A stretch of DNA of 63,622 nucleotides, the filler included, from Craspedostauros australis (lineage: Eukaryota), in NCBI GenBank assembly GCA_030167865.1. It is 12 parts of 12 records of this genome, joined end to end, with 100 filler letters (N's around TTAATTAATTAA, not from the genome) between each part and the next. Parts side by side here need not be neighbours in the genome. Positions count along the whole stretch, not along the records: positions 1 to 11,673 come from JALAGF010005259.1; 11 more parts are not named here. The stretch is one strand, 5' to 3'. Positions 1-39,836 of the stretch are shown here, piece by piece. The translations under genes were made by a program, and so were the position numbers. A model generated the notes under the pieces. The model did no database searches and was not told where the DNA came from. It was given only the letters and a program-made list of their open reading frames with translations. Within the stretch, counting starts at the first letter, position 1, and each line of letters starts with the position of its first letter.

Positions 1-170
1 GAGATGGAGATGGAAATGAAGATGGAATGATGTTGGATATTAGGTTAGTGCCATGTCGTGTGATGTCGTGTCATGTCGTGTAATGGTTCGAGAGAGTTGC
101 AAGAGTGGCTATGCCTGGTGCATAGCATAGAGGCGTAGCATATAGCGTGGTAGCAATGATTTGAACGTAC
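1..170 (-). other. 18S spliceosomal-type intron 8, 5' part only
   Basis: GATGATCAG|GTACGT followed by low-complexity non-rRNA sequence to the window edge; acceptor not visible. Confidence 0.82.
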
Positions 171-337
171 CTGATCATCTTCGATCCCCTGACTTTCGAT
201 CTTGATTGATAAAANNNNNNNNNNNNNNNNNNNNNNNNNNNNNNNNNNNNNNNNNNNNNNNNNNTCGATCTTGATTGATAAAAACATCCTTGACAAATGC
301 TTTCGCAGTAGTTCGTCTTCCAGAAATCCAAGAATTT

Positions 338-554
338 CTGTGGAGAGAGGGAAGTTGAATGATGACGAGTTCATGTTATACAGAGTGAAGATGGATAATA
401 TTGTGTGAGTGAATGGTTTCTTGTGTCTGCTGGTCTCGAGATACGGTGCTGTGCGTCGTTATAGTNNNNNNNNNNNNNNNNNNNNNNNNNNNNNNNNNNN
501 NNNNNNNNNNNNNNNTGCAATGTATCGCAATGTATTGCGTAATATAGTACTTAC
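338..554 (-). other. 18S spliceosomal-type intron 7 (contains an N gap, true length uncertain)
   Basis: CAGAGGTG|GTAAGT...CTCTCTCCACAG|AAATTCTTGG. Confidence 0.9.
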
Positions 555-879
555 CACCTCTGACAATGGAATACGAATGCCCCCAACTGTTCTCCTTAAT
601 CATTACCTTAGTGCGCAAACCAACAAAATAGTACCAAGGCCCTATCTTATTATTCCATGCTAAGATATTCAACGGCATAAGCCTGCTTTGAACACTCTAA
701 TTTTCTCACAGTAAATGATGGGCATCCCCTGCACGACAACTGAATGCCACACAGGTTCCACCCAAGGATGGCGACGTCGGCAAGCACAAACACTAAGTGT
801 CAGGCCGCCAACGTCTGCCAAAAATCCAACTACGAACTTTTTAACTGCAACAACATTAGTATACGCTATTGGAGCTGGA

Positions 880-1057
880 CTGTAGTTTCCAAAAGTGACA
901 GAGGGTAAAGTAGAGTAGAGTAGAGTGGAGTAGAGTAGGGTAGATATGGTTGTGTATGTGTGAGTATATGTATGATTGGCTGGCTGATCTATTGGTCCAA
1001 GGCTTCATTCCGAGGATGGCACGCCACCGTGTCACAGATTCTTGGAGTGTTACTTAC
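880..1057 (-). other. 18S spliceosomal-type intron 6 (178 nt)
   Basis: GCGGTAAT|GTAAGT...AAACTACAG|TCCAGCTCC. Confidence 0.93.
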
Positions 1058-1077
1058 ATTACCGCGGCTGCTGGCAC

Positions 1078-1276
1078 CTGTAATTGCAAGGGCAACGATA
1101 GTGGTGATAGTGATAGTGTGTATTGAGAGAAGTCAGTGAATGATTGAAAAAATTTGTTAGTTTGCTTGTTTGTTTTCGGTTCGGTTGATCGCTGCGCGTG
1201 TTGTGCCACGTCAGTTGTTGTTGCTGTTGCTGTTCCTGGTACTGCCGCTGTTACTGTTGCTGTTGCTGTTACTTAC
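1078..1276 (-). other. 18S spliceosomal-type intron 5 (199 nt)
   Basis: GGCAAGTCTG|GTAAGT...CAATTACAG|GTGCCAGC. Confidence 0.93.
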
Positions 1277-1376
1277 CAGACTTGCCCTCCAATTGATCCT
1301 CGATAAGAGATTTAAATTGTTCTCATTCCAATTGCCAGACCTAGAAAGGCCCGGCATTGTTATTTATTGTCACTAC

Positions 1377-1552
1377 CTGAAGTTGTTAGAGATGGGTAAG
1401 GGTGAAGGTAGGGGAGTGAAATGGTGTGTGAATGGGAATGGATGTGTGAGTGGGTGTTGTATATGGTATGTATGTGTATGCATGCTTTTACTATGGATCG
1501 ATGTGATGTGTATCTACTTTGACTTGGTGTGGTCGGTTCAAGTTGTACGTAC
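1377..1552 (-). other. 18S spliceosomal-type intron 4 (176 nt)
   Basis: CGAAGAG|GTACGT...TCTAACAACTTCAG|GTAGTGACAAT; CTAAC motif present. Confidence 0.93.
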
Positions 1553-1613
1553 CTCTTCGTGTCGAAATTGGGTAATTTACGCGCCTGCTGCCTTCCTTGG
1601 ATGTGGTGGCCGT

Positions 1614-1788
1614 CTGTAATTGTTGGAATGTTATTGTGAAAAGAAGGGGAGGATATAATATGTATGTGAGATGATTGATGATTGATTGAGTTGATTGAAT
1701 TAATTGATTTCATGTGAAATCCTTCGTGCACTCCATGTTGACATGTCACGAGATAATAATGAGAAGGCAGGAAAACAAGGAAACGTAC
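1614..1788 (-). other. 18S spliceosomal-type intron 3 (175 nt)
   Basis: CCTGAGAG|GTACGT...CAATTACAG|ACGGCCACCAC. Confidence 0.93.
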
Positions 1789-2076
1789 CTCTCAGGCCCC
1801 CTCTCCGGAATCAAACCCTAATCCNNNNNNNNNNNNNNNNNNNNNNNNNNNNNNNNNNNNNNNNNNNNNNNNNNGTTACCCGTCATCACCACGGTAGGCC
1901 AATAGCGTACCGTCCAAAGTTGATAGGGCAGAATCTTGAATGATCCATCGCCGCCAAAGGCATGCGATCCGCAATCTTATTATGAATCACCACATCACCT
2001 CGAAAGGGTTGGTTTCAATCTAATAAATACCACTCCAGAAGAGTGTTGACGCATGTATTAGCTCTAGAATTACTAC

Positions 2077-2276
2077 CTGTAGTTGTTAGATGTGAGAATT
2101 GAATGAATTGAATGAATTGGGTCAGGGGGAAGTTTGTGTGAGAATCGAGTTTACAGTTTGGGATGAGGTGGGAGTCAAGTCAAAAGACAGAAAGAAAGAA
2201 TGAGACAACAGCATCCGTGGGGAGTGTTGCTCAGTCCTTTGGTCTGTTCGAGATGGGTGCGGTGTGATGAACTTAC
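2077..2276 (-). other. 18S spliceosomal-type intron 2 (200 nt)
   Basis: GGATAACC|GTAAGT...TCTAACAACTACAG|GTAGTAATTC; CTAAC branch-like motif just before the acceptor. Confidence 0.93.
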
Positions 2277-2374
2277 GGTTATCCAAGTAGTAAGGGACTA
2301 TCAAATAAACGAAAACTGATATAATGAGCCGTTCGCAGTTTCAATGTATGATATTTATACTTGCACATGCATGG

Positions 2375-2567
2375 CTGTAGTTATAAGGGTGAAGCGTCAA
2401 GCGTGGTGTGAATGAGTGAAGGGTGGATGGAGAACAGTATTGTGTGAGTGAAAGGAATGAATGCAATGAATAATGCAATGGATGCTGTGGTTCGTATGGT
2501 GTCGACGTAAACGTGTGTGTTGACATGTGTTGACGACATGCGTGCATTGACAAGTATATTGACGTAC
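2375..2567 (-). other. 18S spliceosomal-type intron 1 (193 nt)
   Basis: GATTAAG|GTACGT...ATAACTACAG|CCATGCATG; removal restores GATTAAGCCATGCATG. Confidence 0.93.
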
Positions 2568-2808
2568 CTTAATCTTTGAGACGAGCGTATGACTACTGGC
2601 AGAATCAACCAGGTTGCTATGCTTAGTGCTCTCCGACGGCACCCGCGTCTGCGTGTGCGTACGGATTACAAAATGCAATGCAAATCAGTGATATGATGTG
2701 CTCTCGCATTCTCCCCTGGGCTCCTTCGGCACTTGCGTACCGAGGGAGGATCCGAGTTTGTAAGTAACGAGTTGTTGTTGGTGTTGTTGTTGTTGACGGT
2801 GATGATGT

Positions 2809-3597
2809 TGTTGGAAATCCGGGGTAGTAGTATAGTCTAATTCTTATTAAACTGTACCGTTTTAGAACTGTGAGAACAACATCTTCATTTCTCAATTCCT
2901 CAAGTCGCTTGCCCATGATGATGCCAGTAACGCCCTGTAGTTGCTTCTTCCTTCATCATAGCAATCCTCCTCCGTCATTCACATCTCGTTGTTCATGACA
3001 GGCGCATTTCATCATGCTCGTCCATTGAGGTTTTCTTCTACACTCCTGCAGTGCATGCATGCCGATGCTGAGTTTCATTCTCTCCCGATCAGGCATCCAT
3101 CACTCATTCAGTGCACTCCTCCGTGTTGTTCACTCACTCTTCTCACATGTTCACTGGTGGTCACACTTGGATCAGAACATGGTGTTCTGGCACGATCAAT
3201 CCAGTCCTTCGATGATATTCCAGTCCGCGCTTTGTTCTCCTTCGGCGGTTCTCTCTCAGTCACGTAATCATGTTCTGGGTTCTGAGTGACACAACCTTGA
3301 TAGCGTATTCGCATAGATGTTGGGTTCAACTGGTCAACCATCGTGCTTAGAACACTTTGGTGTTCCAGTCTCCCTTTCACATCCATTGTTCGCCATGTTG
3401 GGGCGTCAATCATCACAAACATGTCACGCCTTTAGTCTGTCCGTCGTCCGTCATACTCTTGACACACAGAGGAGGAAGGTTCACAATTGACTTGGGAGTG
3501 TGTCCGACTTCGGTAGATCGGTCAGTCTAATTTTGGTATTATGGGAGGTGCGGCAATCTGGGATATTACGACATAGTCGCATCCTCGATTCCTGACA
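2809..3597. mobile_element. Solo LTR, family A
   Basis: TGTTGGAAATCCGGGG...GATTCCTGACA ends shared with other copies; flanks TGATGT/TAATGT (6-bp TSD, 1 mismatch). Confidence 0.8.
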
Positions 3598-3662
3598 TAA
3601 TGTTGCCGTTGTCAGTGTTGTAACGTAACAAGACGTAACGAAACGTAACGCGACGTGACATA

Positions 3663-4131
3663 TGTTGGAAATCCGTGGTGGTGGGGATAGTAGAAAGCTA
3701 ATCGTTTGTTTGAATCTACTTCTCTGAACTGTGACCTCTTCATTGCTCTCAACTTCCAAAGTTCGATCTCCTCCTGAGATCTCCATGAGTTCATCTACCA
3801 GTCTAGCATACCCTCATCTTGCATTCATCCTGAATTCACCATGGTCCTGCATGCTCTACCGAGATTCCCATTGTTGGCAAGTTCCGCTCACGGAAGCCTA
3901 CGATCGTGGAAGACGGTGTTGGTTGATAGTCGGTGTGTTTGCTATTTCAATACATTGGGGCTCCGATCCTCTCGCTGTCCGTTCTCTTGCCCGATGCTCT
4001 CGGCGCGTTTGTCTGTTTCGTAGATTGGTCTCCTCTACCTCCGACTATGAGTCGGTACGCGAGATGCTCTCTCGCTACTCTTCTTATTCTCTCTCTCTCT
4101 CTCAATATCGTGTACTCGTGTTACACGATAT
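3663..4131. mobile_element. Nested LTR fragments: family-A-like end (3663-3871) followed by inverted family B fragment (3872 to about 4131)
   Basis: TGTTGGAAATCCG at 3663; TGTTGGCAAGTTCCGCTCACGG at 3872 is the reverse complement of the LTR-B ends at 23634 and 25826. Confidence 0.7.
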
Positions 4132-4581
4132 TAGCTCAAACTAGTTTTCCCATTAGTCGTGTTAAGATTTAGTCTAGTTAGTCAACTGTCCAACAGCTCA
4201 GAGTTTGAGCGGGATTGAAAACGTGACTCGATGTCGGTGGGATGAGGTCCCACCCTCGAATCGTGCTCTACTTAAGACGATGTCGCGTGTCCGCTGAATT
4301 TGGGTTTGGGCGATCGTGCCGTCCCACGCCACTTATGGGCGTGACATGACCTGTCCTGAACGGACAATCGGGTCAAACCGTTGGATGAACCTTGTTCCCC
4401 CAAATTGATCGGAAGAGAGTGAACAACAAACTCTCTCTCCGACAGTCACGAAATTGATGTCTCCTCTCGGAAATGGCAACATCGACACCGCGATGATTGC
4501 ACGTACGGAGACTCAACGCTCCACTATGTTACTACTAATAGAGATGATGCAGATCCAACTATAATGGATGCTGCACATCAC

Positions 4582-5307
4582 TGTTAGGAATTGAGGGTAC
4601 GACTTTGTCGGAATACCCATAATTGCCGCACCTCCCATCATTGTTCGTCACAGCTTTGAATATTANNNNNNNNNNNNNNNNNNNNNNNNNNNNNNNNNNN
4701 NNNNNNNNNNNNNNNNNNNNNNNNNNNNNNNNNNNNNNNNNNNNNNNNNNNNNNNNNNNNNNNNNNNNNNNNNNNNNNNNNNNNNNNNNNNNNNNNNNNN
4801 NNNNNNNNNNNNNNNNNNNNNNNNNNNNNNNNNNNNGACGACGTCGATCAGAACAGCATGTCCATGGGCAAGTGACGCACCTTCTTCAGAGGACAGCACA
4901 TGCCTCTCCTGCGGACAAGATCATCTGCAGGTTTGGAACATCAGAAAGGATCAGAATATCCGCAGGTTTGGAACATCACCAAAGGTGACATCGATCATGA
5001 GACGGCGGTGTCATGAGAATCAACGACGGAAACATGAGATAGGCAAGTGCTCAAGACTGCAGATCCCTACCATGCAAGCGTAGACAGCTACGACGATGCA
5101 GAGACAAGGAAGCAAGAACAGAGCATGATGAACGAAGAGGGAAGCACCTAAGAGACAACAGGATGCCCCGTGTCGTTACCGCGACAGATGCCTGTCAAGA
5201 AAACGAGATCAGAAGAGAAAGTGAGATTGTGCTCACAGTTCTAAAACGGTACAGTTTCTAACAGCAGATTAGAACTTAGTACTAACTATAACCCCGGATT
5301 TCCAACA
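4582..5307. mobile_element. Solo LTR, family A, inverted relative to the 2809 copy
   Basis: TGTTAGGAAT...CCCCGGATTTCCAACA flanked by perfect 6-bp TSD CATCAC. Confidence 0.85.
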
Positions 5308-6129
5308 CATCACATGCTCACAATCCAATTGAAAGTCTCATTTGGATTCGTACAGCTCTAAAGACTAAGACACATTCACACACTCAAACTCACCAACCTA
5401 CTGCACTAGCACGGATTGATCACCCTTCGGCGTTCAGCAAGTTCACCTCGTTTTCATTATCGTTTTATCAGATAATATGATATCCGAGAATCACATACGG
5501 GACTCAACTGGTATCCAAGACAAGAATCGATCGACTCGACGGTATCCGAGAGTCAGACATGTGACACGATCGTATCCGAGACTGAGAAGGATCCCAGAAG
5601 CATAGCTCTACCGCCCCGCACAGTATACTACTTCAAATCGGATCCTGGAGGAGAGGCATGATTGGTTCAAACAGTCCAGCCTACCAATGACACGGATGCA
5701 CGATACATTCAAACCAAAAGAGGAGAAACTTCAGATAGCAACGCGTATGCCGAGCAACTCAATGAAGCAACATCCATACAGAATTACACTCACAATTAGC
5801 AGCACAGTTACAATGCATTCCTAAGTCACTAGTTGTCACCAGAGCCAAGCAGCGTCCTCGTCCAAACCAGGCGAGTCCACTGCTGGGAAACAACATTGCG
5901 ACATAGGGGCCGTAGTCTCGTGTCTCGTGATGCTGGTCACGAAACCAACATCCCTGCCCCCTGCGACATACACGTGTGATTCGCATTCCTGCATTGAGGT
6001 CACGAACGTCACAACCCTGTTCGCATTCGGCACGTGGCGTTCTGCACCGCAAGACGCGTGCAGCTCACATTTTCTGTCACAAAGATCCAAAGTGAGAGTT
6101 GCGGTAATATACCATTTAACAACGATCAA

Positions 6130-6234
6130 CTCTACACTCTTGGGAGGTGCGGTAGTATATCATTTCAAAAACATTCGACTCCCACTATTGGGAGGTGCGG
6201 CAATTTGTCGTTTCAGAACACCCGATTCCTGACA
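6130..6234. mobile_element. Right end of another family-A-like LTR
   Basis: GGGAGGTGCGGCAAT...CCCGATTCCTGACA terminal motif as at 3597 and 22320. Confidence 0.55.
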
Positions 6235-6429
6235 TGCAGGCAGTAAGTTTGGATGTAGTCTGTCCCTAATTGAATTCCAACTCTGATGCTAGATTTCGAA
6301 CATCAAGGTAGGACACCAGACGTTTCTTCAGAGTCTGTCCTTCGGCGAATTGCAACCCGCTCTGTCGGTGTGACACGAAAGCAAGAACGGGAAAAAACGA
6401 AACATTCAAGTTTCGCAAAGTTTGGTTTC

Positions 6430-6545
6430 CAGAATTTGCATCTATGTTTTGAGTATAACGGTCACAACGTCTAGAAAAGAGGAAATGAACCCACGAACTT
6501 CCGCAACAACAACAAGGCACAGAAATCCAATCCGAGAAACCGCGC
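6430..6545. repeat. Dispersed repeat; inverted diverged copy at about 22640-22800
   Basis: AAATGAACCCACGAACTTCCGCAACAACAACAAGGCACAGAAATCC matches the reverse complement of GGATTTCGGTGTCTTGTTCTTGTTGTGGAAGTTCGTGAGTTCATTT. Confidence 0.55.
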
Positions 6546-8217
6546 GCAATCAAGCGGGGCGTGTTCGCACGACTGCAGACACACGCCTGAGGTCGGTTTC
6601 GGGCGTTTTGCTGTGGGTCCGTCTGAGAGGGCACAAAAGACGATTTTCGCCGCTCGCCGACGTCCAAGTTGAAGACAATGACGAGTCGCACCCATGTCCG
6701 AGTGAAAGCTAAATATCTAAAGCACGGGCGACTGCGGGAGATTTCTCAACTCAAACTCTCGTAACTTACAAAATAAACAGTTTAAGCATTCTAGGAAGGT
6801 CAATCCGCATCTTATTCATAGAGAGGAACATCATATTAAACTTAGAAGTAAATCTGGGAGGGCTTCCCGAGAAATGTGTCACATTTTCGCTCGATCGAGT
6901 CATAGAATAAACAACAACGGCAACGGAGAACAAAAGCAACACAACACCACCAGAACCGACACAGCCAAACACCAACTCCCTCTCTCTTTCTCTTTCTGGA
7001 GAGAAACACAAGGACAACGCAGATGATGGCGAAGGTCTCCTCTTTCCGACGTGCCGATGATGTGTTGAAGATGATGCACACTTCGGATCAACATGCGTGT
7101 GGGACACAGCAAGTTTGCGCAGAACGTTGCATTGAAGGGTGCATGAAGCATTTGGCGCAGAAGTATCGAGCATGAAGCGCGAAGTAGACCCAACAGATTC
7201 CGTTTGCCATCATGGGCAGTCAGATTTATTGGATCAGTCTCACTCGACCGTGCCCCTGCCATCAAGATCGACTTGAAGATGCAATAAATCACCATGTTGC
7301 GATCGGATCTGTGCCTCTTCCGTCTGGGGTTGGAATTTCATCTGAGTTGAAGCCCAAGTTGACCGGCTGGCCATGTGGGAACGCTGCACACGAGTACTTT
7401 GCAGGTGGTTCGTTGTCTGGGCAAAAAAAAAAAACACTGTTCGTTTCGCGTTTCCGTGAACACGCAAGATGTACTCCGTGTTGGCATGGTACGTCAAATG
7501 CGAGAACAAAATACTCTGCATTGGTGGAATTTATTGTCAGGGGTGAGCAACTACCACCTGTTTCCGATGTTACCTCAAGTACATTGGAATACCGTCGAAT
7601 GTCATCAGGGGCTGAAAAAGTCTTCGGTTGATTCGCTGGTACTGGGGAAGGAGAAGACGGACAAAATTGGTGGAAGATGAAATCGAGGTAGAAGCAGAAC
7701 AGGTTGGGGGTTGCTTCGTGGCACTACTCGTAGCCCTTACGCTTGCCCTAATTCCCGGGAATGCAGGAATAGCGTCACTAGAAGGAACAAAGCTAATCAC
7801 TCTACGAGGTCCTCCACGTGACGAGCAATGGACGCGATGTGCTCATGGATGCGAGCGATTCATTGGCGACAACGCCTGCGCTCCCGTCGATCTCGAGCAG
7901 CCATCATACCGTATCCTGGACAGCTCAACGATCAGGTCGCCGTCATCTTGGTTGCTGCCAGTTAAGGGTCGCTGGCTCTATCATCTTCAACACATCGCGT
8001 CATCGTGCAGAGAGCAGAGAGCAAGGCATGGATTCAGTATGGCAACATTATCATCACCCATACGGTTACCGGCATCGATGACAGCGATGAAGATCGTTGC
8101 GTCGCGTCGCGTCCAAACCAAATCCAAACCAAAGGCTCACAATTCCAATCTGGATCATCCTCGCACGCATCTGCAATATCAAGAAAACACAACCAACACG
8201 GAATCAACCAGCCAACC

Positions 8218-10648
8218 ATGATCGCACCTTCGACCATCATCGATCGTCTCATCGGCCTCGTGTCGCTCGCTTGCCTCATGTTTGCGAGTGGCAGCAAAGG
8301 TGTCCAAGCCGCCGCCAACACCGACCAGGGAGACTCGGTAAGTGAATTTTCAGACATACTGTCCGGTGCGAGGATACAAGTCTTGGGTATGGCAGTTGCG
8401 ACTTCCAGCTGGTTGCTGGTGCTGGTGCTGATGCTATGCCTCTCCCATCTATCTTCGAGGAAGGGATCCGTTTAAATTGCACGGTATGTCTATTCGCATA
8501 GTCCTTCTCACGCATAGAATGAGCCAATCCGTCACCTTTGTTCATCTCCTCATTTTGCACTTGCGCACCGCAACCATCCAAACGACTCTGCCACAGAGCA
8601 ACTCATACAAGGCATGCACCCCAGAAGAAGCCAACCTCGTCTTCCCAGGCTTAACTGCGGCGATCTCGGCGCGCAAAGGAGTGATCGAGATGGTGTGGCC
8701 CTCTGCGGAGTTCCATGACCCCACCGACAACTTCGCACACGAGGAGTGCCACGACATCGTGCACGAAGTCTTCATCGTGGAGGGTATCGTGAACTTTACG
8801 GAGCTCTTACTTGATGACCTTCGTGCGAATGAGTCCGTGCATAACCATGAGACCACCGACCTTATCCACACCGCTGAGAACCTCAAGCATGGAGTCAACC
8901 ACAGCGCACTCGTCATCGCCAAAGTTGGTGATGACTGGGTGTCTTCGAACCGAGAGAGCCGTACGTTGAAGGTCTCGACAGCAGACCCTGTGTTGAACCA
9001 ACATAACGTGACCTACTTGGAAGAAGACACGGAGTTTGTGCGGCATGTGAAGCACAGCGACGGGGTCTCGATGATCTTTCCAGCAAGCCAAAGCGGAAAT
9101 TTCGAGGAGGGAGACTGGATCACAGGCCAGGACATGAACGGCGAGCCTTACATCGTCAAGCTGCTGTCGTCAACGAAACCAGAAAGCACGAGCGGCGACT
9201 CCAGCAAAGGCATCGTCGTCTGGAAGGTGATGGATGGAACCCTTGCGGATATTTACGAGCGCCTCGACATGTCTGCGTCCGTGAAGGTCCCTGAAAATCC
9301 AGGAGATACTGATAGCCTTGGTGGCAGCGGTGGCGTGCTACAGTCTCGCATGGACCATATGGCAGCTGCTCAGCACGGTTTCCATTTTGACAAGAGCAAA
9401 AGCATTGGGCCCGTCGACATCGCCTATTCAGGTGATGTCGGCCTTTGGCTGGATTATAACGTGGACATGGGGATTCTCCCCGTTCATCTTGATGCGTGGG
9501 CTTCAGTCGAAGCCGTCCTCGAGCAAACAGCATCCCTCACGATTCAACAAACCCTCGCAAAAAACTTCAACAGAACCATCTCGCTACATGATTGGCAAGG
9601 CACATGGGTCACGTTTTTCGTGGGCGGAGCTCCTGTGTCTGTCAAAGTCACCCCCATCACCAAGGTGATCGTCAACGCCACGGCCACACTGGAAGGAGCT
9701 TTCGGAGTGTCTGCTTCGTCGCAAGACATGTATAGGTGGGAAGCTCAGTACGAGTTGAAGAAAGGATGGAGTTCGAAGATGATCAGTTCAAAGCCAGAGA
9801 GAGACTTCGACTACAATATCAGCGCCAGTGCATCCCTGGACCTTTACGGGGGATTGCAACTGGGAGTTGATCTGAAGGTGTACGGGCTTCTGCAGATGTC
9901 TCCTTTCATCGAGGCTGGACCTGATCTTTCCATTGGGGCCGCAAGCACCCCCAAAGCGCTGTTGTCGTTGTCGGAGAATAATTCTTCCATCAAGCAACTC
10001 TTCCACTTCACCAAATTCAACGCAGGCGTCAAATACGCGATTGGGGTGACTGTGGGAATTGATGCTACCCTCAAGATCCTCGGTAAGACAGTCATCGGGT
10101 TCAACCCCCATCGTACCTTTAAGCGTCAAAGACGCAAGACCCTCTTCGAGCTCCCCACCGCAAAACTCATGATCACGGAGTATCAGAGCTGTGCAGGAGA
10201 TGACGCTATACGGCTCACAGCAGAGATGCATGGGCACGATTACGATGGCTGGCTCTCAAACACGCTCGAGAGTGAATACGACAGCGCCATCGCACCATCA
10301 GACCATTGGACGGTTAAAAAAGAGGGAAATGATCCTGCAACTGTGAGCTTGGCATTGAAACGTTCAGCCATCGAGGATGTCGGCTTCTTCCGGCTTCCTG
10401 AGGATGGTGAGGTTCTCTACTTTGCGACTGGCGCAACCATTCCTCCTCTTCCGTTTTCTTATCTTCTCTTTGAGCATGATCTGGAGAGCATCGAAGGGAT
10501 GCCGGACATGAAGAAGTTTGACTGTTGCGATGATTCTGACTGTGCCAACAAGCGCGACAAGATTGCGGGGAGCCCAGATCGTCCCGTTTGTCGAGATTAC
10601 AAGTGCACCAACATCGAAGTGGATTCCAATTCCAGTTCTGAATTGTGA
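8218..10648 (+). CDS. Secreted hypothetical protein, about 723 aa, two exons (8218-8337, 8597-10648); beta-rich, C-terminal Cys cluster
   Basis: Exon 1 encodes signal-like MIAPSTIIDRLIGLVSLACLMFASG; the phase-0 intron GTAAGT...CCACAG joins in frame to the 683-codon ORF. Confidence 0.82.
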
Positions 10649-11717
10649 AGACCTGCATTACGAAAGGCTTGCTCTTGAACCTGAACCGATCACATCGAGT
10701 TTTCGCACTCGCACCTGTACTCTACTTACTTGTATTTGTATTGAGCTATTGATGGTCCGCCTGGGATTGTCGACGAATAGCGGGAATCGCCATGCCACAC
10801 CACACCATACGATACATTTGAAGATTTGCAGAGTCCTAGAGCACGATCACACCACATACGCATTGCAGTTGTAGTTACAGTTTCAGTTTCAGTTATAGTT
10901 TCAGTTTCAGTTTCAGTTACAGTTATAGTTACAGAGACAGTGACAATTGTATAATAGCTATCAACAACCTCCGTGGCTCTACTTTGTTCTGTCTCCAGAG
11001 CGAGTGTGTGTAGGGTATTGTTTTTGCGAAATTGTTCCCAGCAAGGCTCGATGGCTCCCTTGGAAGTGCGGTAGGCACTTCATGCACCCTGAAGCCCCCT
11101 TCACTCAAGAACAGGGTGCACTCAACAAACTGCGATCGCAAATGAAGGCGATAAACCCCATGTAGGAGGCATCTTACCGACCATGCAGGGCAACCCAAAG
11201 AACAACCGGACATGAAAGGAAAAGCGTGCCGCGCATACCACGGGTAGAGAGAGGCAAATTCACACCCAAGGAACCACGCAACAGCGACGCCACACAGAAT
11301 GAGCTCCCATCACAATGGGCGTTCTGAGGATCTACCAACAAGTGCCAAGCAAACATGCCTCGGGTGGAGAGCATCTGTTAATTATCGTGGCACGAGTACG
11401 CGCTCGGCTCTGATGGGAATAGTTTCAAACAGGAATAGAAAACCCTGAAAAGAAGAACTCTCACATCCACAATAGCAAGGGCAAAGACGACTTTGTTCAA
11501 TGAACACTTTTGAACAACACTCTACGAGTATGCTGACGGTCTTCGCTGCGTCGATTTCACATGTTGGAGAAGCGCAGGTGGAGAATATTCGTATTACATT
11601 ACTACGTTACGTGTCCAAAAGTCTGCGCATCCTTTTGGATTCAGGGTCTGACATTGACTTGTCGGGGGGGGGGNNNNNNNNNNNNNNNNNNNNNNNNNNN
11701 NNNNNNNNNNNNNNNNN

Positions 11718-11729
11718 TTAATTAATTAA
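11718..11729. other. Artificial contig-join linker TTAATTAATTAA within N-runs (also at 13403, 15012, 20331, 25274, 28142, 35274, 38398, 40268, 47552, 62329)
   Basis: Identical 12-mer giving stops in all six frames, always flanked by about 44 Ns. Confidence 0.97.
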
Positions 11730-11773
11730 NNNNNNNNNNNNNNNNNNNNNNNNNNNNNNNNNNNNNNNNNNNN

Positions 11774-17570: not shown

Positions 17571-20285
17571 TTAGAGTTCTTGACAGGCTGATGGGGATGG
17601 TCCAGGGCAGTCTGTGGCTGCATCGTCAATTACGTACGTTTCTGTCGCTGACGTACACAGTGATCCTTGGGCGCACTTGGTGCAGGAGGCGGCTGTCGTG
17701 CAGACTCCTGTTCTGATGATGATGTCATTGGCTGCACTGATACTTTCGCCAAGTTGGGAACACGTGCTCTCGCCCGAGCAGGCATCATCTTCGATGATCA
17801 CGCTTCCTTCATATTTGTTCGTTGAGCGATGCAATCTGAGGCAAGCACTCCCCTTTTGGCACGCATTCTTTCCGATGAAGACACTTGCCACGATCGGCGT
17901 CTGGGGTGGAGACAACTGTTGCCTTTTGCGCACCGCAAGGCCAAAGCATGAAAATGCTTCATCACATGATCCTTCTTCCACTCGCATATTTCCAAATGTG
18001 TTACTTCCAATCCCACTGCAACTCTGCTCTGCAACACAAGCTCTTGGTCCGATCACACTGAATCCGACTTCGATACCAGCAGCTGGCTTACTTAAGAAAT
18101 AGTGCAGTTGAAAACAGGCATTGTCTCCCTTGCAACTGTCAAGGATGATTGCGTTGGGATGTACCCAAAAGCAAGCGTCTTTTCCGGTACACGACCTTGA
18201 GCTCACCGTCGTGACACCACTATTAGAAGGGTCGGTGATGCAAGCATTATCACCGGTGCAGCATTCCACACCGCATGCCTTCGTCACCACAGGCCCGCTG
18301 CCAGTGAAGAGCTTCTTGCCCTCGTCCACGATGGCCAACAATGCGGTGATCACATTTTCGTCGTTCTTGATCTTGTTAAAGCGTGCCTGCGCCACCTCCA
18401 CCATCACGGGCTGTGGAGGGTCTGCATCATTGCATCCAAAGATGCTCTTGATCATCTTGCGCTTCCCTTCAGCCAGAGCATCAACCATGGAGACGAAGTC
18501 CGCGCATGTGCCTGTTGCATCATCGCACAATACATCGCCAGTGACGGAATTGAACATTGTTGTGTGGTCACCCGGTTTTTCGAGACATCCTACGGTGAAG
18601 GATGCCGGGGGGGGAAGCGTCGGACTACTTGTTCTTGTAGGCAGTTGCGAAGGCTGTGAGCTTGTTGATGGCATGTCAGATGGTTGGGTGGATGGGAGTG
18701 CGGATGGCTCCTCGGACGGCTGTACGGAAGGCTGTACGGACGGAAGGTTGGTGGGCTGTTCGGTCGGCTCTTCAGTCGGAAGGTCGGAGGGCTGTGCAGA
18801 CGGCACCTCAGACGGGACTTGCGATGGACTGCTTGACGGGAGTGAGCTCGGGATATCTGACGGCATCTCAGACGGAACTTGCGATGGACTGTGTGACGGA
18901 AGATATGAGGGCGTCCGAGACGGCGAGTTGGATGGGGCGCTGGTTGGACTGGACGTGAGAGGTGTTGGGAAAGGAGTTGGAGAGAATGTCGGACAGTCTG
19001 TGGGCAAGGTGTCCTTGCCAATACAGTACTCCTCCACTTTGTCACCAGTAGGATTGCCCCCAGAGCTGCTGCCTCCCTTTGGGCAGGCCCCGTCCACGTT
19101 GCTGATGAAGTAGAATTCATTAGGGCTGCACTCCGTCTTCGTCATGCATCCTCTGCAGCCTTCGAAACTGCCGCATCCATCAGGAGGGACAATGATATCC
19201 GTCCTCATCCTGTCACTGAAGCCCATCTTCTCGCATGAGCCATCAGCAGCGCAACCACCAGCACCAATGGTCAGGCTGCCTGCAGCCTTGCCACCAGCAC
19301 CATGGTTGACAGTGGAATGGGCATCCTTGCAGGCGTTGGCGCCTACGCACGCATTCGGGCCAATGTCGATGTGGCTGCGGAAGCGATATGATGGTGCTGA
19401 TTGCTCCACACGGCGGCCAGTGGAGTTGCATGCCTCTGACCCAACGCATGCACCAGAATGGATAGTCACATCACCATGGGAGCGGCGTCCCACTCCCTCG
19501 CAAGAGTGAGGAGTGGTGCATGCCATCTCACCGATGAAGGTGACTCCTGTGATGGACGGATTGATTTCATTTTCGTTCATCAACTCGCATGCGCTGTCTC
19601 CAGTGCAGGAGGAATCGAGAATGAGCGGGTTGGGGCCCATATCCTTGCATGCGCTGCCGCCAGTGCATGATGTGATGGCGACGGTCATGAATGGAGGAGA
19701 GATGGAGGCGGAACCGGTGACTGAGGTGCATCCAGAGGATCCTTGGCAGCATGGGTCTGCGACAGGAGGCGATTGCATCGCAGCGATGGCCGCGCATGCT
19801 GCCTTCATTGCGTCTGGTCGTTCGGTGACGAGGATTGCGTTGGTGGCAGCGACCACGGCCAATTGGCCAGCAAGCACGTCGCTGGATGCGTACTTGTTGA
19901 AGAGCTTGCGTGCAGCTCCTTCACCGAGGTCTCCGGCGCACGCGAAGAAGTTCTGCAGTTGCTCGGATTCCTTGACAGCGCTGATGGCTTCGCGGCAGGA
20001 TGGCTTGGCAGAGTTGCAGATGATGGTCTTGGCGCTTACCTCTTGCTGTGTGAGGGCGGTATTGCCATCCGGCTTGCAAATGACCTTGACGGTAGAATCA
20101 AAGACCACTGGGGCAGCTGATGGTTTGGCAGTTGGCAGGAGCGTCGGTTGAGAGGTCGGCAACGCGGTTGGCTGAGCGACAGGTGCCATCGAGGGCATCT
20201 CCGAAATCAAGCCTGTTGGCGGCCCAGTAGGCAATGCGGTTGGCGCGGTTGTTTCTGCAACAGCCGGGTTTTCAGTGGGTGGCAC
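17571..20285 (-). CDS. Cys-rich/PTS-mucin extracellular protein, 5'-partial (>904 aa), two homologous Cys-repeat modules
   Basis: Long ORF with PT/PS linkers and repeated (S/A)CxGxxAC motifs in two blocks; runs into the gap at 20287. Confidence 0.85.
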   Translation of the reverse strand: MPPTENPAVAETTAPTALPTGPPTGLISEMPSMAPVAQPTALPTSQPTLLPTAKPSAAPVVFDSTVKVICKPDGNTALTQQEVSAKTIICNSAKPSCREAISAVKESEQLQNFFACAGDLGEGAARKLFNKYASSDVLAGQLAVVAATNAILVTERPDAMKAACAAIAAMQSPPVADPCCQGSSGCTSVTGSASISPPFMTVAITSCTGGSACKDMGPNPLILDSSCTGDSACELMNENEINPSITGVTFIGEMACTTPHSCEGVGRRSHGDVTIHSGACVGSEACNSTGRRVEQSAPSYRFRSHIDIGPNACVGANACKDAHSTVNHGAGGKAAGSLTIGAGGCAADGSCEKMGFSDRMRTDIIVPPDGCGSFEGCRGCMTKTECSPNEFYFISNVDGACPKGGSSSGGNPTGDKVEEYCIGKDTLPTDCPTFSPTPFPTPLTSSPTSAPSNSPSRTPSYLPSHSPSQVPSEMPSDIPSSLPSSSPSQVPSEVPSAQPSDLPTEEPTEQPTNLPSVQPSVQPSEEPSALPSTQPSDMPSTSSQPSQLPTRTSSPTLPPPASFTVGCLEKPGDHTTMFNSVTGDVLCDDATGTCADFVSMVDALAEGKRKMIKSIFGCNDADPPQPVMVEVAQARFNKIKNDENVITALLAIVDEGKKLFTGSGPVVTKACGVECCTGDNACITDPSNSGVTTVSSRSCTGKDACFWVHPNAIILDSCKGDNACFQLHYFLSKPAAGIEVGFSVIGPRACVAEQSCSGIGSNTFGNMRVEEGSCDEAFSCFGLAVRKRQQLSPPQTPIVASVFIGKNACQKGSACLRLHRSTNKYEGSVIIEDDACSGESTCSQLGESISAANDIIIRTGVCTTAASCTKCAQGSLCTSATETYVIDDAATDCPGPSPSACQEL

Positions 20286-20923
20286 TNNNNNNNNNNNNNN
20301 NNNNNNNNNNNNNNNNNNNNNNNNNNNNNNTTAATTAATTAANNNNNNNNNNNNNNNNNNNNNNNNNNNNNNNNNNNNNNNNNNNNGTGCCATGAGGAGG
20401 AGGAGAGAGGATGCACTGTTGTCGCCAAGTATTTGTGAAAAGCTGCACCAAAAGCACCAGAATCCGGTGCTGGGATTGTGAAGGAGACAGTGCCGAAAAA
20501 CTGATGCATGACGAGAAGCACGACAAGCATGTTGGTGGACGCAGGTACCAGACATCGAAATAGCAAGGTAGAATATGATTACCCCAGATCCCATGANNNN
20601 NNNNNNNNNNNNNNNNNNNNNNNNNNNNNNNNNNNNNNNNNNNNNNTAGCAAGGTAGAATATGATTACCCCAGATCCCATGACGTCGAGAAAGCAAGACA
20701 GGCGCACGGAAAGGAACCCCTGAGACATGATCAATGACGCCGTGCTGTATCGTGGGTTTTTTTTTTTTTGAATCGCCAAATAAATGTGTTACTCGAAGGA
20801 GTCAGAAAAAAAACAACCCACTTTCGGGTTTCGGACCGAAATCGTTTTTTTTTCTGCAACACGGGACATCGTGGAGGAACATGGGACTTAAGTAGTACAA
20901 GTGGTATTTTCGGCGAGCTTGCA

Positions 20924-22837: not shown

Positions 22838-23634
22838 TGTCGAGATGTACATGTGAGTATACGTCAAGATGTACATGTATATGTGCATCGTTCACCTGTT
22901 ATTCTCTCATACGCACTTGGACGGTATAACTATACTCGTGTCAATAGTATACTATCATTCGTCAGAATTACAGGGGAAATGGAACACACAAAAAGGGGCA
23001 AGATTTCTGGAGGAAATTTGCAAATAACGATTTCTGGGAGAATCCGAAGATCGTCCGTCCATGCATCAATGGTACCAAGAGAATCTTGAGGTACTTCCCA
23101 ACTAAACCTCAGATGACGATATCATCTGACAGACTACTGCATCACCAATGGAACNNNNNNNNNNNNNNNNNNNNNNNNNNNNNNNNNNNNNNNNNNNNNN
23201 NNNNNNNNNNNCCACGTCGACAGCTGTCTCCAAGTCAGAGCAGGAGGCGAAGATACGATGACCTATGAAGATCATGGATACTGAAGGTGAACTTCAAATG
23301 GTAAGTACTCATGGAGTAGAAGCCAGTACTGAATGAACGGAGTATCGAATGCGGAGCACGCATCGAACATGGAGTATCGTGTTGCACGAGCACACGATGT
23401 TGAGAAAGAGAGAGAGAGAGAGAATACAGATAGGAGCGAGAGAGGATCTCGCGTACCGACTCATAGTCGGAACCTGAATCTACGAAACAGATTGAAGCGC
23501 CGAGAGCATCGGGCAAGAGAACGAACGGACATCGAGAGTATCGGAGTGCCAACGTAATGAAATAGCAAACAGACGACTATCAACCAATACCATCTTCCAC
23601 GTTCGTAGGTTACCGTGAGCGGAACTTGCCAACA
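22838..23634 (+). mobile_element. Solo LTR, family B
   Basis: TGTCGAGATG...GGAACTTGCCAACA with perfect 6-bp TSD TGTGCG; homologous to the LTR preceding the gag at 25330-25826. Confidence 0.85.
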
Positions 23635-28097: not shown

Positions 28098-28197
28098 NNN
28101 NNNNNNNNNNNNNNNNNNNNNNNNNNNNNNNNNNNNNNNNNTTAATTAATTAANNNNNNNNNNNNNNNNNNNNNNNNNNNNNNNNNNNNNNNNNNNN

Positions 28198-35229: not shown

Positions 35230-35329
35230 NNNNNNNNNNNNNNNNNNNNNNNNNNNNNNNNNNNNNNNNNNNNTTAATTAATTAANNNNNNNNNNNNNNN
35301 NNNNNNNNNNNNNNNNNNNNNNNNNNNNN

Positions 35330-38300: not shown

Positions 38301-38353
38301 AGCGGCCCAACATCTGGACCAACCAGCGGACCAACTTCGGGACCAACCTCGGG
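35330..38353 (+). CDS. Mucin-like protein fragment: about 200 GPTS tetrapeptide repeats around a Cys-rich globular domain (about 37170-37610); both ends in gaps
   Basis: The GPTS frame reads through into the non-repetitive domain CVDPDG...ECAEFTNV...AECVD...CEACSLP...YYFDVPC. Confidence 0.9.
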
Positions 38354-38504
38354 NNNNNNNNNNNNNNNNNNNNNNNNNNNNNNNNNNNNNNNNNNNNTTA
38401 ATTAATTAANNNNNNNNNNNNNNNNNNNNNNNNNNNNNNNNNNNNNNNNNNNNTGCACCCTCGCCACAGTCCTGTACGCAGTGGCAACCCCAACCCACAC
38501 ATCT

Positions 38505-38690
38505 CTGACCCTAACCCTAACCCAGGTCTTGGCCCTCTGGACCCCTAGCCCTAACCCCAGCCCTAACCCTAACATTGAGTAACTTCATGGCTCTGTCTGA
38601 GTAATGTCAGCCACACGCAGTTGCCTCCCTCGTCTCTTCCAAGTTGCCGAAACTCCAACCGGAACCCCAACCCTAACTCTAGCCCTGAAC
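38505..38690. repeat. Degenerate CCCTAA (telomere-like) hexamers
   Basis: CCCTAACCCTAACCC...CCCTAGCCCTAACCCCAGCCCTAACCCTAAC, plus a short run near 38665. Confidence 0.55.
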
Positions 38691-39836
38691 AACTGCTTCC
38701 CTCNNNNNNNNNNNNNNNNNNNNNNNNNNNNNNNNNNNNNNNNNNNNNNNNNNNNNNNNNNNNNNNNNNNNNNNNNTTGCTTTTCTCCCACTTTTTTGCT
38801 TCCTGCACTGTTTCGATCCATTTCAACGGCCGCCGTTCCAGCGTTTTTGATTCGATTTCACGATTTTTACAGTTTGTTTCGTCGGAGGTATCTTCCAGAA
38901 CGTTCTTTGAACTCTTTGGCGCCAATGAAAAGTAATCAATATTGTCGATTGTGACTGCGGTATCCGGACAGACGCCATATCTNNNNNNNNNNNNNNNNNN
39001 NNNNNNNNNNNNNNNNNNNNNNNNNNNNNNNNNNNNNNNNNNNNNNNNNNNNNNNNNNNNNNNNNNNNNNNNNNNNCCATTTCCATCGGCATCCCTTGGC
39101 AACTGCACGTACCATACTCGCTCGCCATCATCTTTTTTCAATCAAGAGCATCATGCACAAACACGTTCATCTTCTGAAGTGCTTCATCCCGCGCCCAACT
39201 GCCATCTCTCATTGCTTCGATCAATTGACCGATCGCCGCTCGTGTTCAGTTGGTGGGTTGTACCGTTACGGTCACTCATTCCTGCTTGTGCGACCGTNNN
39301 NNNNNNNNNNNNNNNNNNNNNNNNNNNNNNNNNNNNNNNNNNNNNNNCATATCTGCTGAGTAAAACCTGGCACGTTGGCTCGAAGGCTTCGTTGAGAATC
39401 TCAACGCACGAGCCATCCAAAGAGACAGACTCAGAGAAACAAAGACAAGAAACAAGTCAACACAAGAGATGAAAGGGGCCACGTGTTGACTGGTGGGAAA
39501 CATCGCGTCGCGTGGCTTCGCATCATCCGTTGCCATTTCCATTTTCATCGGCATCCCTTGGCAACCGCACGTACCATACTCGCTCGCCATCATCTTTTTT
39601 CAATCAAGAGCATCATGCACAAGCACGTTCATCTTCTGAAGTGCTTCATCCCACGCCCAACTGCCATCTCTCATTGCTTCGATCAATTGACCGATCGCCG
39701 CTCGTATTCAGTTGGTGGGTTGTACCGTTACGGTCACTCATTCCTGCTTGTGCGGCTGTGACAATTCCAACGCATCACAATGCACCACACCACAACACAC
39801 CATCACCCACCACAACACACCACAGCGCAAAGAGAA

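What the first reader, a model, noticed from the sequence alone, without database searches (positions are those of the whole stretch)
880..1276. 20-nt rRNA micro-exon equal to the universal 530-loop (515F) motif
Seen: introns 5 and 6 bracket exactly GTGCCAGCAGCCGCGGTAAT (1077-1058). Known: this is helix 18 / the 530 loop of the decoding centre. Inference: skipping this exon would give a non-functional small subunit, so splicing must be very accurate or could be a control point. All eight introns lie in conserved segments and six follow a G (four follow AG), consistent with gain by reverse splicing at proto-splice sites.
Basis: partly seen in the sequence, partly recalled or inferred. Interest (0 to 1): 0.72.

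Follow-up and report, generated by a model that had tools for sequence, protein, structure and literature searches.

The report
Intron-dense 18S gene with micro-exon
A nuclear small-subunit ribosomal RNA gene, probably from a diatom, is split by at least eight mRNA-type introns, two of which isolate the 20-base decoding-centre loop as a tiny exon; such introns are already known in diatom and lichen ribosomal genes.

Summary
Window 1-2615 (minus strand) is the 5' ~990 nt of a eukaryotic 18S rRNA gene (Rfam RF01960). It is cut by eight GT-AG insertions of 175-217 nt. Introns 5 (1276-1078) and 6 (1057-880) bracket exactly GTGCCAGCAGCCGCGGTAAT (1077-1058), inside a gap-free stretch of assembly.

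The insertions look spliceosomal:
- 8 of 8 start GTAAGT or GTACGT, and 7 of 7 complete ones end YAG.
- They are G-poor (0.11) and full of microsatellites.
- They are not structured, and Rfam finds no group I match.
- 4 of 8 follow AG (P=0.001).

This kind of intron is already published: 17 spliceosomal sites, up to 11 inserts (group I included) per gene, in Chaetocerotaceae diatoms (PMC6306197), and in lichen fungi. By my arithmetic four sites here coincide with published ones. The site after GGTAAT is not in that table, but a metagenome contig carries an intron there too.

With eight introns in 991 nt, an exon of 20 nt or less is expected 71% of the time.

The "control point" idea has no support.

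Verdict: a new member of a known kind, of moderate interest.

The parts
1..2615 (-). 5' part (about 990 mature nt) of a eukaryotic 18S rRNA gene; continues beyond window position 1
   Evidence: Rfam RF01960, 407 bits, E 1.4e-119. It is the only family match in the 63.6-kb window. Alignments.
2568..2615 (-). exon 1 (48 nt)
2375..2567 (-). intron 1 (193 nt), aag|GTACGT...CTACAG|cc
2277..2374 (-). exon 2 (98 nt)
2077..2276 (-). intron 2 (200 nt), acc|GTAAGT...CTAACAACTACAG|gt
1789..2076 (-). exon 3 (288 positions, including the N50 gap at 1825-1874)
1614..1788 (-). intron 3 (175 nt), gag|GTACGT...AATTACAG|ac
1553..1613 (-). exon 4 (61 nt)
1377..1552 (-). intron 4 (176 nt), gag|GTACGT...CTAACAACTTCAG|gt
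1277..1376 (-). exon 5 (100 nt); its end is the 5' strand of helix 18
1078..1276 (-). intron 5 (199 nt), ctg|GTAAGTAACA...AATTACAG|gt; starts with a hexanucleotide microsatellite (TRF unit GTTGCT on the + strand)
1058..1077 (-). exon 6, the 20-nt micro-exon GTGCCAGCAGCCGCGGTAAT (530 loop of helix 18)
880..1057 (-). intron 6 (178 nt), aat|GTAAGTAACA...AAACTACAG|tc; holds a pentanucleotide microsatellite (TRF unit GTAGA on the + strand)
   Evidence: An intron at the same site occurs in metagenome contig L001.
555..879 (-). exon 7 (325 nt; 3' strand of helix 18, the V4 region, up to the 690-loop region)
338..554 (-). intron 7 (217 positions, including the N50 gap at 466-515), gtg|GTAAGT...CTCCACAG|aa
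171..337 (-). exon 8 (167 positions, including the N50 gap at 215-264, whose flanks repeat the same 19 nt)
1..170 (-). intron 8, 5' part only, cag|GTACGT...; its 3' end lies outside the window

Best explanation
This is the 5' half of a nuclear 18S rRNA gene of a stramenopile alga, most likely a diatom. The taxon is my recollection of diatom 18S sequences and was not confirmed by any tool.

The gene has acquired at least eight spliceosomal-type (U2-type GT-AG) introns at conserved sites. This is the same phenomenon already described for Chaetocerotaceae diatoms and for lichen-forming ascomycetes.

The 20-nt exon arises because two independent introns lie 20 nt apart, just before and just after the 530-loop sequence. 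Helix 18 is therefore encoded in three exons: its 5' strand in exon 5, its loop in exon 6 and its 3' strand in exon 7.

Inferred mechanism:
- The long precursor is made from the rDNA and the spliceosome removes each short intron on its own (intron definition).
- Twenty nucleotides is too short for two spliceosomes to sit side by side, so introns 5 and 6 are probably removed one after the other.
- Only then can helix 18 fold.
- A skipped product would lack the decoding loop and would be discarded.

Shown here: the gene, the intron borders and signals, the lack of ribozyme-like features, the site bias, and one independent intron at the same site. Inferred only: transcription, splicing, ligation, splicing order, and that this copy is a working one.
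For: Gene identity: Rfam SSU_rRNA_eukarya, 407 bits. The exon flanks match the consensus at high posterior probability, and no non-standard pairs are flagged in helix 18.

Splice signals: 8 of 8 introns start GTAAGT or GTACGT. 7 of 7 complete introns end YAG, and 6 of those 7 end YAYAG. Lengths are uniform at 175-217 nt.

Composition: G is 0.11 in introns against 0.255 in exons. All 20 tandem-repeat rows in 1-2700 fall inside introns.

Not ribozymes: no Rfam match other than the SSU gene at E<=1 in 1-4600. Intron 5, the micro-exon and intron 6 together fold worse than shuffles, z=+1.66.

Site bias: 4 of 8 introns follow AG (P=0.0010), 6 of 8 follow G (P=0.0047), and 3 of 8 sit at AG|R (P=0.0027).

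Published precedent:
- PMC6306197 (passages and Table 1 read) describes short 18S inserts in Chaetocerotaceae. They have a GTDHNN (usually GTAAGT) start, a YTRAC motif, a CT-rich tract and a YNHAG (usually YAYAG) end, at 17 sites, with up to 11 inserts (group I included) per gene.
- By cumulative exon length (my arithmetic), introns 3, 5, 7 and 8 fall on their sites 385-386, 548-549, 891-892 and 989-990, within sliding ambiguity.
- Yeast removes a lichen spliceosomal intron from its own Pol I rRNA (PMC8527467; bioRxiv 10.1101/276220; passages read).

Independent occurrence: metagenome contig L001 has a GTAAGT...AAACTACAG intron of 416 nt at exactly the intron-6 site.

Read data: one public run (X1) holds 0.63 of the sampled words of 516-1823, whereas exons alone could give at most 0.31. 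The intron-bearing form therefore exists in read data. That run may be the assembly's own source.
Against: - No RNA evidence.
- A strict YTRAY branch motif occurs in the last 60 nt of only 4 of 7 complete introns (I1, I2, I4, I5). In I5 it is 59 nt from the end.
- I could define only one mRNA intron in the window, in a Gar1 gene, and it looks different: GTGCGT start, 594 nt, CCAG end, G 0.18.
- Low-G GTAMGT...YAYAG segments are otherwise nearly absent from the window: 5 of the 6 found are rDNA introns.
- It is a gapped short-read draft with three N50 gaps inside the gene, one of them with duplicated 19-nt flanks. Copy number is unknown and other copies may differ.
- The taxon is not verified by any tool.
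Confidence: 0.75

Rival explanations
1. This is a silent or minor rDNA copy (an orphan, an array-edge copy or a pseudogene) whose introns are tolerated because it is not used. The working rDNA repeats would have fewer introns or none.
For: The 9 kb upstream on the same scaffold, and the whole window, contain no LSU or 5.8S match, so no preceding repeat unit is visible. The assembly breaks three times inside the gene, once with overlapping 19-nt ends, which can happen when copies differ. Intra-individual presence/absence of such introns is reported for Chaetoceros (PMC6306197). The title of Han et al. 2018 on Olifantiella points the same way, but I saw only the title.
Against: The exons show no decay. 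All conserved blocks match the Rfam consensus and the helix 18 pairs are intact. The splice signals are perfect in 8 of 8 and 7 of 7 introns, which would not be maintained in a dead copy. A run of only 13 million letters holds well over the exon share of words. That is easier to explain if the intron-bearing form is abundant, but the kind of run is unknown.
Confidence: 0.12
2. The insertions are removed by a route other than the spliceosome. They could be excised as internal spacers that leave a fragmented 18S rRNA, or be degenerate self-splicing or protein-assisted introns.
For: rRNA is normally made by Pol I, away from the spliceosome. 3 of 7 complete introns lack a strict branch motif near the 3' end. 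Degenerate, non-self-splicing group I introns exist in lichen rDNA (PMC8527467).
Against: Uniform GTAAGT/GTACGT starts and YAG ends in every intron. No group I or other Rfam match at E<=1. The region is less structured than shuffled sequence. A true group I intron is easily recognised in L001 with the same tool (64.9 bits). A free 20-nt rRNA piece carrying the decoding loop is unprecedented to my knowledge.
Confidence: 0.06
3. This is an assembly artefact or chimera: intron-like sequence was wrongly threaded between rRNA fragments in a gapped short-read draft.
For: The window is a chain of small contigs with many gaps, and the gene itself has three N50 gaps.
Against: The block 516-1824, with introns 4, 5 and 6 complete, parts of introns 3 and 7, and exons 4 to 7, is gap-free. 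Every insertion sits precisely at a GT...AG border that restores the consensus when removed. Run X1 holds intron words, though it may be the source data. An unrelated metagenome contig shows the same site occupied.
Confidence: 0.04

Closest known systems
Spliceosomal introns in 18S/28S rDNA of Chaetocerotaceae diatoms (Gaonkar et al. 2018, PMC6306197; abstract, passages and Table 1 read)
   Same: Short GT-AG inserts with a GTAAGT-type start and a YAYAG-type end, in conserved 18S segments, many per gene (up to 11 inserts, group I included). By my arithmetic four sites coincide: 385-386, 548-549, 891-892 and 989-990. An S516 group I intron occurs next to the 548-549 site in that family, as in contig L001.
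   Different: Introns here are longer (175-217 nt against typically 96-199 nt). No taxon in their Table 1 has this combination of sites. The sites after about 48, 146 and 568 (the one after GGTAAT) are not in their table, so no 20-nt exon is reported there. Intron 4 lies about 5 nt from their 442-443 site. Density is higher here: 8 introns in the first ~990 nt.
Spliceosomal introns in rDNA of lichen-forming ascomycetes (Bhattacharya et al. 2000, recalled and seen only in reference lists; Cladonia grayi work in PMC8527467 and bioRxiv 10.1101/276220, passages read)
   Same: mRNA-type introns in Pol I-transcribed rRNA genes at conserved sites. They are removed from mature rRNA, and yeast spliceosomes can remove one from rRNA. 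The proto-splice-site argument was, as I recall, made in the 2000 paper.
   Different: A different kingdom. The fungal introns are few per gene and much shorter (57 nt in the C. grayi example). They coexist with many degenerate group I introns, which are absent here.
Olifantiella sp. rDNA introns (Han et al. 2018, J Phycol; title and citations only, paper not held)
   Same: A diatom with rDNA introns and presence/absence heterogeneity. PMC6306197 cites it as the other diatom case of spliceosomal rDNA introns.
   Different: I could not read it, so sites and numbers cannot be compared.
S516 group I introns with His-Me finger homing endonuclease genes
   Same: They occupy the same loop. In L001 a group I intron (RF00028, 64.9 bits) with a PF05551 ORF sits 2 nt inside the motif, and with the downstream GT-AG intron it leaves an 18-nt exon.
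   Different: The window's introns 5 and 6 have no ribozyme core, no ORF and no significant structure.
Insertions in the 18S rDNA of the diatom endosymbiont of the dinotom Durinskia kwazulunatalensis (PMC12519138, passages read)
   Same: Short insertions in a diatom-derived 18S gene, reported there as absent from mature rRNA.
   Different: There are four insertions of 86-95 bp, which mostly lack known intron motifs according to that paper. Here all carry canonical GT-AG signals.

Membership tests
U2-type spliceosomal (GT-AG) introns | 5' splice site GTRNGT-like | tested here: met
   8 of 8: GTAAGT in I2, I5, I6, I7 and GTACGT in I1, I3, I4, I8
U2-type spliceosomal (GT-AG) introns | 3' splice site YAG | tested here: met
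   7 of 7 complete introns end CAG. Intron 8's end is outside the window.
U2-type spliceosomal (GT-AG) introns | Branch-site motif (YTRAY) shortly upstream of the 3' splice site | tested here: inconclusive
   A strict YTRAY occurs in the last 60 nt of 4 of 7 complete introns: CTAAC at -13 in I2 and I4, TTGAC at -26 in I1, CTGAC at -59 in I5. None in I3, I6 or I7.
U2-type spliceosomal (GT-AG) introns | Absent from the mature RNA, with exons ligated | not testable with these tools
The 15 RNA runs listed hold only 0.13-0.14 of the words, which is the conserved parts.
U2-type spliceosomal (GT-AG) introns | Removal depends on the spliceosome | not testable with these tools
   Needs an experiment. 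By analogy only: yeast removes a lichen rDNA intron of this type (PMC8527467).
U2-type spliceosomal (GT-AG) introns | Resemble the same genome's mRNA introns | tested here: inconclusive
   Only one mRNA intron was found, in Gar1: GTGCGT...CCAG, 594 nt, G 0.18. It is C-rich like the rDNA introns but longer and with other end motifs.
Diatom rDNA spliceosomal introns as described for Chaetocerotaceae | GTDHNN start, YNHAG end, short length, in conserved 18S core | tested here: met
   All starts and all 7 ends fit (against PMC6306197). Lengths of 175-217 nt are at or just above their 96-199 nt range. The flanks are conserved.
Diatom rDNA spliceosomal introns as described for Chaetocerotaceae | Host is a diatom | not tested
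   The diatom assignment rests on my recollection of diatom 18S variable regions. No tool here holds eukaryotic reference rRNAs. The atlas and protein searches gave no taxon.
Group I introns | Conserved ribozyme core detectable by the covariance model RF00028 | tested here: not met
   No match at E<=1 in window 1-4600. The positive control L001 scores 64.9 bits. The fold z-score is +1.66.
Introner-like or transposon-derived intron families | Introns are near-copies of each other or of other genomic elements | tested here: not met
   Of 36 pairwise local alignments, the best are I1-I7 (score 36, z 8.5) and I2-I3 (score 34, z 5.6); all others have z below 4. No BLAST match of 1-2615 elsewhere in the window. 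Only 63 kb was available, so genome-wide copies are not excluded.

The most novel reading that the evidence does not exclude
In this lineage ribosome production is tied to the spliceosome. At least eight introns in the first kilobase of 18S interrupt the 530, 690 and 790 loops (loop assignment from recalled E. coli numbering). Small-subunit assembly would then wait for ordered splicing, and inclusion of the 20-nt decoding-loop exon would act as a rate-limiting step or checkpoint. The cell could use it to throttle ribosome output, for example in resting stages, much as proposed for lichen rDNA introns and desiccation tolerance.
Probability: 0.08. Interest if true: 0.75.

Novelty: new member of a known kind. 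Interest (0 to 1): 0.4.

Why it matters
How a spliceosome deals with a Pol I transcript that is being packed into a pre-ribosome is still unexplained. Only fungi have been studied experimentally.

A genome-sequenced alga with 8 or more mRNA-type introns in half of its 18S gene would be a demanding natural test case. One of its exons is only 20 nt long and carries the decoding-centre loop. It could address splicing order, micro-exon recognition without a reading frame, and the cost of introns to ribosome biogenesis.

There is also a practical point. The introns destroy the binding sites of universal 18S primers in genomic DNA. Introns 5 and 6 abut both ends of the 515F target. By my recalled numbering, intron 8 cuts the 785F/806R region. 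Organisms like this will be missed or mis-sized in DNA metabarcoding, as PMC6306197 already warns for Chaetoceros.

Tried and rejected
- Read evidence. The look-up of sequencing runs listed 19 runs. Nothing was laid, so expression, splicing, exon skipping and depth are untested.
- Own genome. None is held, so other rDNA copies could not be sought.
- Earlier notes of this scan. Four look-ups found nothing bearing on this locus.
- Taxon. The atlas search with the Gar1 fragment gave only generic eukaryote clusters. The 738-aa ORF upstream on the rDNA scaffold has no homologue at E<=1e-5 among 8000 scored candidates of near length.
- Pfam scans of 17 and 122 ORFs gave only PT repeats, zinc knuckle, DDE_Tnp_4, glycine zipper, Gar1 and some weak hits. 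That was too little to build a set of mRNA introns.
- Introner idea. Rejected within the window.
- Group I or structured intron idea. Rejected.
- Searches for the micro-exon plus 5' splice-site pattern: 1 contig in metagenome contigs, 0 in genome contigs, 0 in viral contigs.
- Papers. Bhattacharya 2000 and Han 2018 are not held. A search for position 514/534 led only to a yeast numbering that is a different site. PMC8070900, PMC4201569, PMC11646303, PMC11007259, PMC10756210 and PMC9790305 added nothing beyond citations.
- Not in print, as far as searched. I found no mention of a micro-exon at the 530 loop in the searches. The supplements of PMC6306197 (S1 Fig, a PDF map of intron sites) were not read and could bear on site identity.

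Full report
**What is there**

The minus strand of window 1-2615 matches the Rfam eukaryotic small-subunit rRNA model (RF01960, 407 bits, E 1.4e-119). This is the only RNA-family match in the 63.6-kb window. The alignment shows well-conserved rRNA blocks separated by large unaligned insertions.

Reading the strand directly and tabulating it gives eight exons of 48, 98, 288, 61, 100, 20, 325 and 167 positions. Three of these include a 50-N gap. There are eight insertions:

| Intron | Coordinates (minus strand) | Length |
|---|---|---|
| I1 | 2567-2375 | 193 |
| I2 | 2276-2077 | 200 |
| I3 | 1788-1614 | 175 |
| I4 | 1552-1377 | 176 |
| I5 | 1276-1078 | 199 |
| I6 | 1057-880 | 178 |
| I7 | 554-338 | 217, including 50 N |
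| I8 | from 170 | runs off the window start |

The gene is therefore only its 5' ~990 mature nucleotides. The rest lies outside the window.

**The observation**

Exon 6 is exactly GTGCCAGCAGCCGCGGTAAT at 1077-1058. It is preceded by ...AATTACAG and followed by GTAAGTAACA. Removing I5 and I6 restores the universal sequence running from ...caagtctg through the 20-mer into tccagctcc....

The block 516-1824 contains no N, so this architecture is contiguous assembly and not a scaffold join. In the Rfam structure line the two strands of the helix that closes this loop lie in exon 5 and exon 7, and no non-standard pairs are flagged there. Helix 18 is thus encoded in three exons.

By the usual E. coli numbering, which I recall from the name of the 515F primer and did not test, the micro-exon is 515-534. 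That places I5 after 514 and I6 after 534. By the same recalled numbering, I7 falls in the 690 loop and I8 in the 790 loop.

**What the insertions are**

- All eight begin GTAAGT or GTACGT. All seven complete ones end CAG, six of them YAYAG.
- They are uniform in length.
- They are G-poor and C/A-rich: G 0.11 against 0.255 in exons.
- They are full of short tandem repeats. All 20 Tandem Repeats Finder rows in 1-2700 fall inside introns.
- No Rfam family other than the SSU gene itself matches 1-4600 at E<=1. The same library readily finds a group I intron in a comparison contig.
- I5, the micro-exon and I6 together fold less well than dinucleotide shuffles (z = +1.66, with 97 of 100 shuffles folding at least as well).
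- The introns are not copies of one another. Of 36 pairs, I1-I7 (score 36, z 8.5) and I2-I3 (score 34, z 5.6) stand out, each only a short local match; all others have z below 4. They have no BLAST match elsewhere in the window.

These features fit spliceosomal-type introns. They do not fit ribozymes, introner families or spacers.

The weak points are these. A strict YTRAY branch motif lies in the last 60 nt of only 4 of 7 complete introns. The one mRNA intron I could define in the window interrupts a Gar1 gene and looks rather different: GTGCGT...CCAG, 594 nt, G 0.18. A scan for low-G GTAMGT...YAYAG segments found six in the window, five of them rDNA introns. The window holds few recognisable genes, so this says little.

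**Site preference**

Four of eight introns follow AG (I1, I3, I4, I8) and six follow G. Against the composition of the exons, the binomial tails are 0.0010 for four or more of eight after AG, 0.0047 for six or more of eight after G, and 0.0027 for three or more of eight at AG|R.

It fits insertion at proto-splice sites. It would equally arise if only introns at such sites splice well enough to survive in an essential gene. Nothing here separates reverse splicing from other routes of gain.

**Is the micro-exon special?**

With eight introns placed at random in 991 nt, some exon of 20 nt or less appears in 71% of trials, by simulation and by the analytic value. A tiny exon is therefore the expected by-product of this intron density. 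That it is the 530 loop follows from introns favouring conserved segments.

I5 and I6 share the same first ten letters (GTAAGTAACA). With 28 possible pairs this is not significant by itself.

**Context and quality of the assembly**

The window is not one chromosome stretch. Eleven N44-TTAATTAATTAA-N44 linkers show that it is a chain of separate contigs. The rDNA scaffold is 1-11673.

Inside the gene are three 50-N gaps. The gap in exon 8 has the same 19 nt on both sides, so two contig ends overlap there. Between the flanks of the gap in exon 3, by my recollection of diatom 18S, only about three nucleotides are expected. It could hide a further intron or nothing at all.

No 28S or 5.8S lies upstream within the scaffold. 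A ~260-nt element upstream of the gene (3872-4132) recurs at about 82% identity on two other contigs of the window. No whole genome is held, so copy number and other rDNA copies could not be examined.

**Independent data**

One public run (X1, 13 million letters, kind uncertain) holds 0.63 of the sampled 31-letter words of 516-1823. At most 0.314 of such words lie wholly in exons, so that run contains intron sequence. It may be the very sample the assembly came from and is not independent proof.

Fifteen RNA runs hold 0.13-0.14 of the words, about what conserved exon parts of relatives would give. Transcription, splicing, exon skipping and depth therefore remain untested.

A scan of JGI metagenome contigs for the end of the micro-exon followed by a GTRNGT start found one contig, L001. 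Reading 5' to 3', it shows:
- the same exon-5 end;
- a group I intron inserted two nucleotides into the motif (RF00028, 64.9 bits), carrying a 182-aa His-Me finger homing endonuclease ORF (PF05551, E 7e-15);
- an 18-nt exon;
- a 416-nt GTAAGT...AAACTACAG intron at exactly the I6 site, with a branch-like motif (gctaac) upstream.

So the site after GGTAAT is occupied in at least one other organism, and a micro-exon at the 530 loop is not unique to this genome. The same pattern has no match in the prokaryote genome collection or in the viral contigs.

**Comparison with what is known**

Gaonkar et al. 2018 (PMC6306197; abstract, passages and Table 1 read) report short inserts at 17 locations in the 18S of Chaetocerotaceae diatoms. 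The inserts have a GTDHNN (usually GTAAGT) start, a YTRAC motif, a CT-rich tract and a YNHAG (usually YAYAG) end. There are up to 11 inserts (group I included) per gene, and there is presence/absence variation even within individuals. The authors call them spliceosomal and cite Han et al. 2018 (Olifantiella) as the other diatom case and Bhattacharya et al. 2000 for ascomycetes. I could not read those two papers.

From cumulative exon lengths, corrected by me for the gaps, the introns here follow mature positions of about 48, 146, 387, 448, 548, 568, 893 and 991. The comparison below allows one or two nucleotides of sliding where intron and exon ends repeat the same letters, and an offset of one to two in numbering. 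It is arithmetic, not an alignment.

| Intron here | Their Table 1 site |
|---|---|
| I3 | 385-386 |
| I5 | 548-549 |
| I7 | 891-892 |
| I8 | 989-990 (the I7-I8 spacing of 98 is identical) |
| I4 | about 5 nt from 442-443 |
| I1, I2, I6 | no counterpart |

No taxon in their table has this combination of sites.

For fungi, a lichen spliceosomal rDNA intron placed in all yeast rDNA repeats is correctly removed from the Pol I transcript, at a cost to growth (PMC8527467; bioRxiv 10.1101/276220; passages read). Insertions in the 18S of a diatom endosymbiont are reported as absent from its rRNA (PMC12519138).

That the present organism is a diatom is my recollection of diatom 18S variable regions, helped by the match of intron style and sites. 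No tool confirmed it.

**How it most likely works**

Shown: the gene, the borders, the signals, the absence of ribozyme features and the site bias.

Inferred:
- The precursor is transcribed with all introns.
- Each short intron is recognised on its own.
- The 3' signals of I5 and the 5' splice site of I6 are only 20 nt apart, so the two are probably removed in sequence, not at once.
- After the first removal the exon is 120 or 345 nt long and the second removal is ordinary.
- Helix 18 and its loop can form only after both removals.
- Joining exon 5 directly to exon 7 would delete the decoding loop and give a dead subunit.

That splicing must be accurate is therefore true but trivial. I found no evidence that it is used as a control point.

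**Verdict**

The phenomenon belongs to a published kind, spliceosomal-type introns in diatom and fungal rDNA. This locus is a dense new example with at least one site, and a micro-exon, not listed in the paper I could read. Interest is moderate, and the open question of how a spliceosome handles pre-rRNA remains.

Noticed in passing
window 11674-11773 and ten further places (13359, 14968, 20287, 25230, 28098, 35230, 38354, 40224, 47508, 62285): N44-TTAATTAATTAA-N44 linkers (all-frame stop spacers) show that the window is a chain of separate small contigs, not a continuous chromosome stretch. Neighbourhood arguments across them are invalid.
   Followed up: partly
L001 1-1408 (metagenome contig): An S516 group I intron (RF00028, 64.9 bits) with a His-Me finger homing endonuclease ORF (PF05551) is followed by an 18-nt exon. 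Then comes a 416-nt GT-AG intron at the same site as the window's intron 6. This is a mixed ribozyme/spliceosomal bracket of the 530 loop.
   Followed up: partly
window 215-264 and 1825-1874: The 50-N gap in exon 8 has identical 19-nt flanks, so the contig ends overlap. The gap in exon 3 sits where, by my recollection of diatom 18S, only about 3 nt are expected. Either could mark differences between rDNA copies or a hidden intron.
   Followed up: no
window 3872-4132; copies at 23375-23634 and 25475-25826: A ~260-nt element upstream of the 18S gene, with a (GA)n run, recurs at 82-86% identity on two other contigs of the window. It may be a spacer repeat or a dispersed element.
   Followed up: no
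window 57514-58700, minus strand: A Gar1 (H/ACA snoRNP) gene with RGG-rich tails and one 594-nt GTGCGT...CCAG intron. It is the only clear mRNA intron found in the window.
   Followed up: partly
window 35286-38405 (+), 17571-20330 (-), 49418-52336 (-): Very long ORFs made largely of PT/PTSG-type repeats (Pfam PT repeat, E down to 1e-88). One of these contigs begins with degenerate CCCTAA telomere-like repeats at about 38454-38700.
   Followed up: no
window 41983-43074 (+) and 26779-28149 (+): ORFs with a DDE_Tnp_4 (Harbinger/PIF-type) transposase domain and a CCHC zinc knuckle. The unplaced contigs seem rich in mobile-element remains.
   Followed up: no
window 8432-10648 (+): A 738-codon open frame on the rDNA scaffold, with no Pfam family and no homologue at E<=1e-5 among 8000 scored candidates of near length. 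It may be an orphan gene or a chance frame.
   Followed up: partly
window 1267-1276 and 1048-1057, minus strand: Introns 5 and 6, the two that flank the micro-exon, share the same first ten letters (GTAAGTAACA). The rest of the two introns is unrelated.
   Followed up: partly
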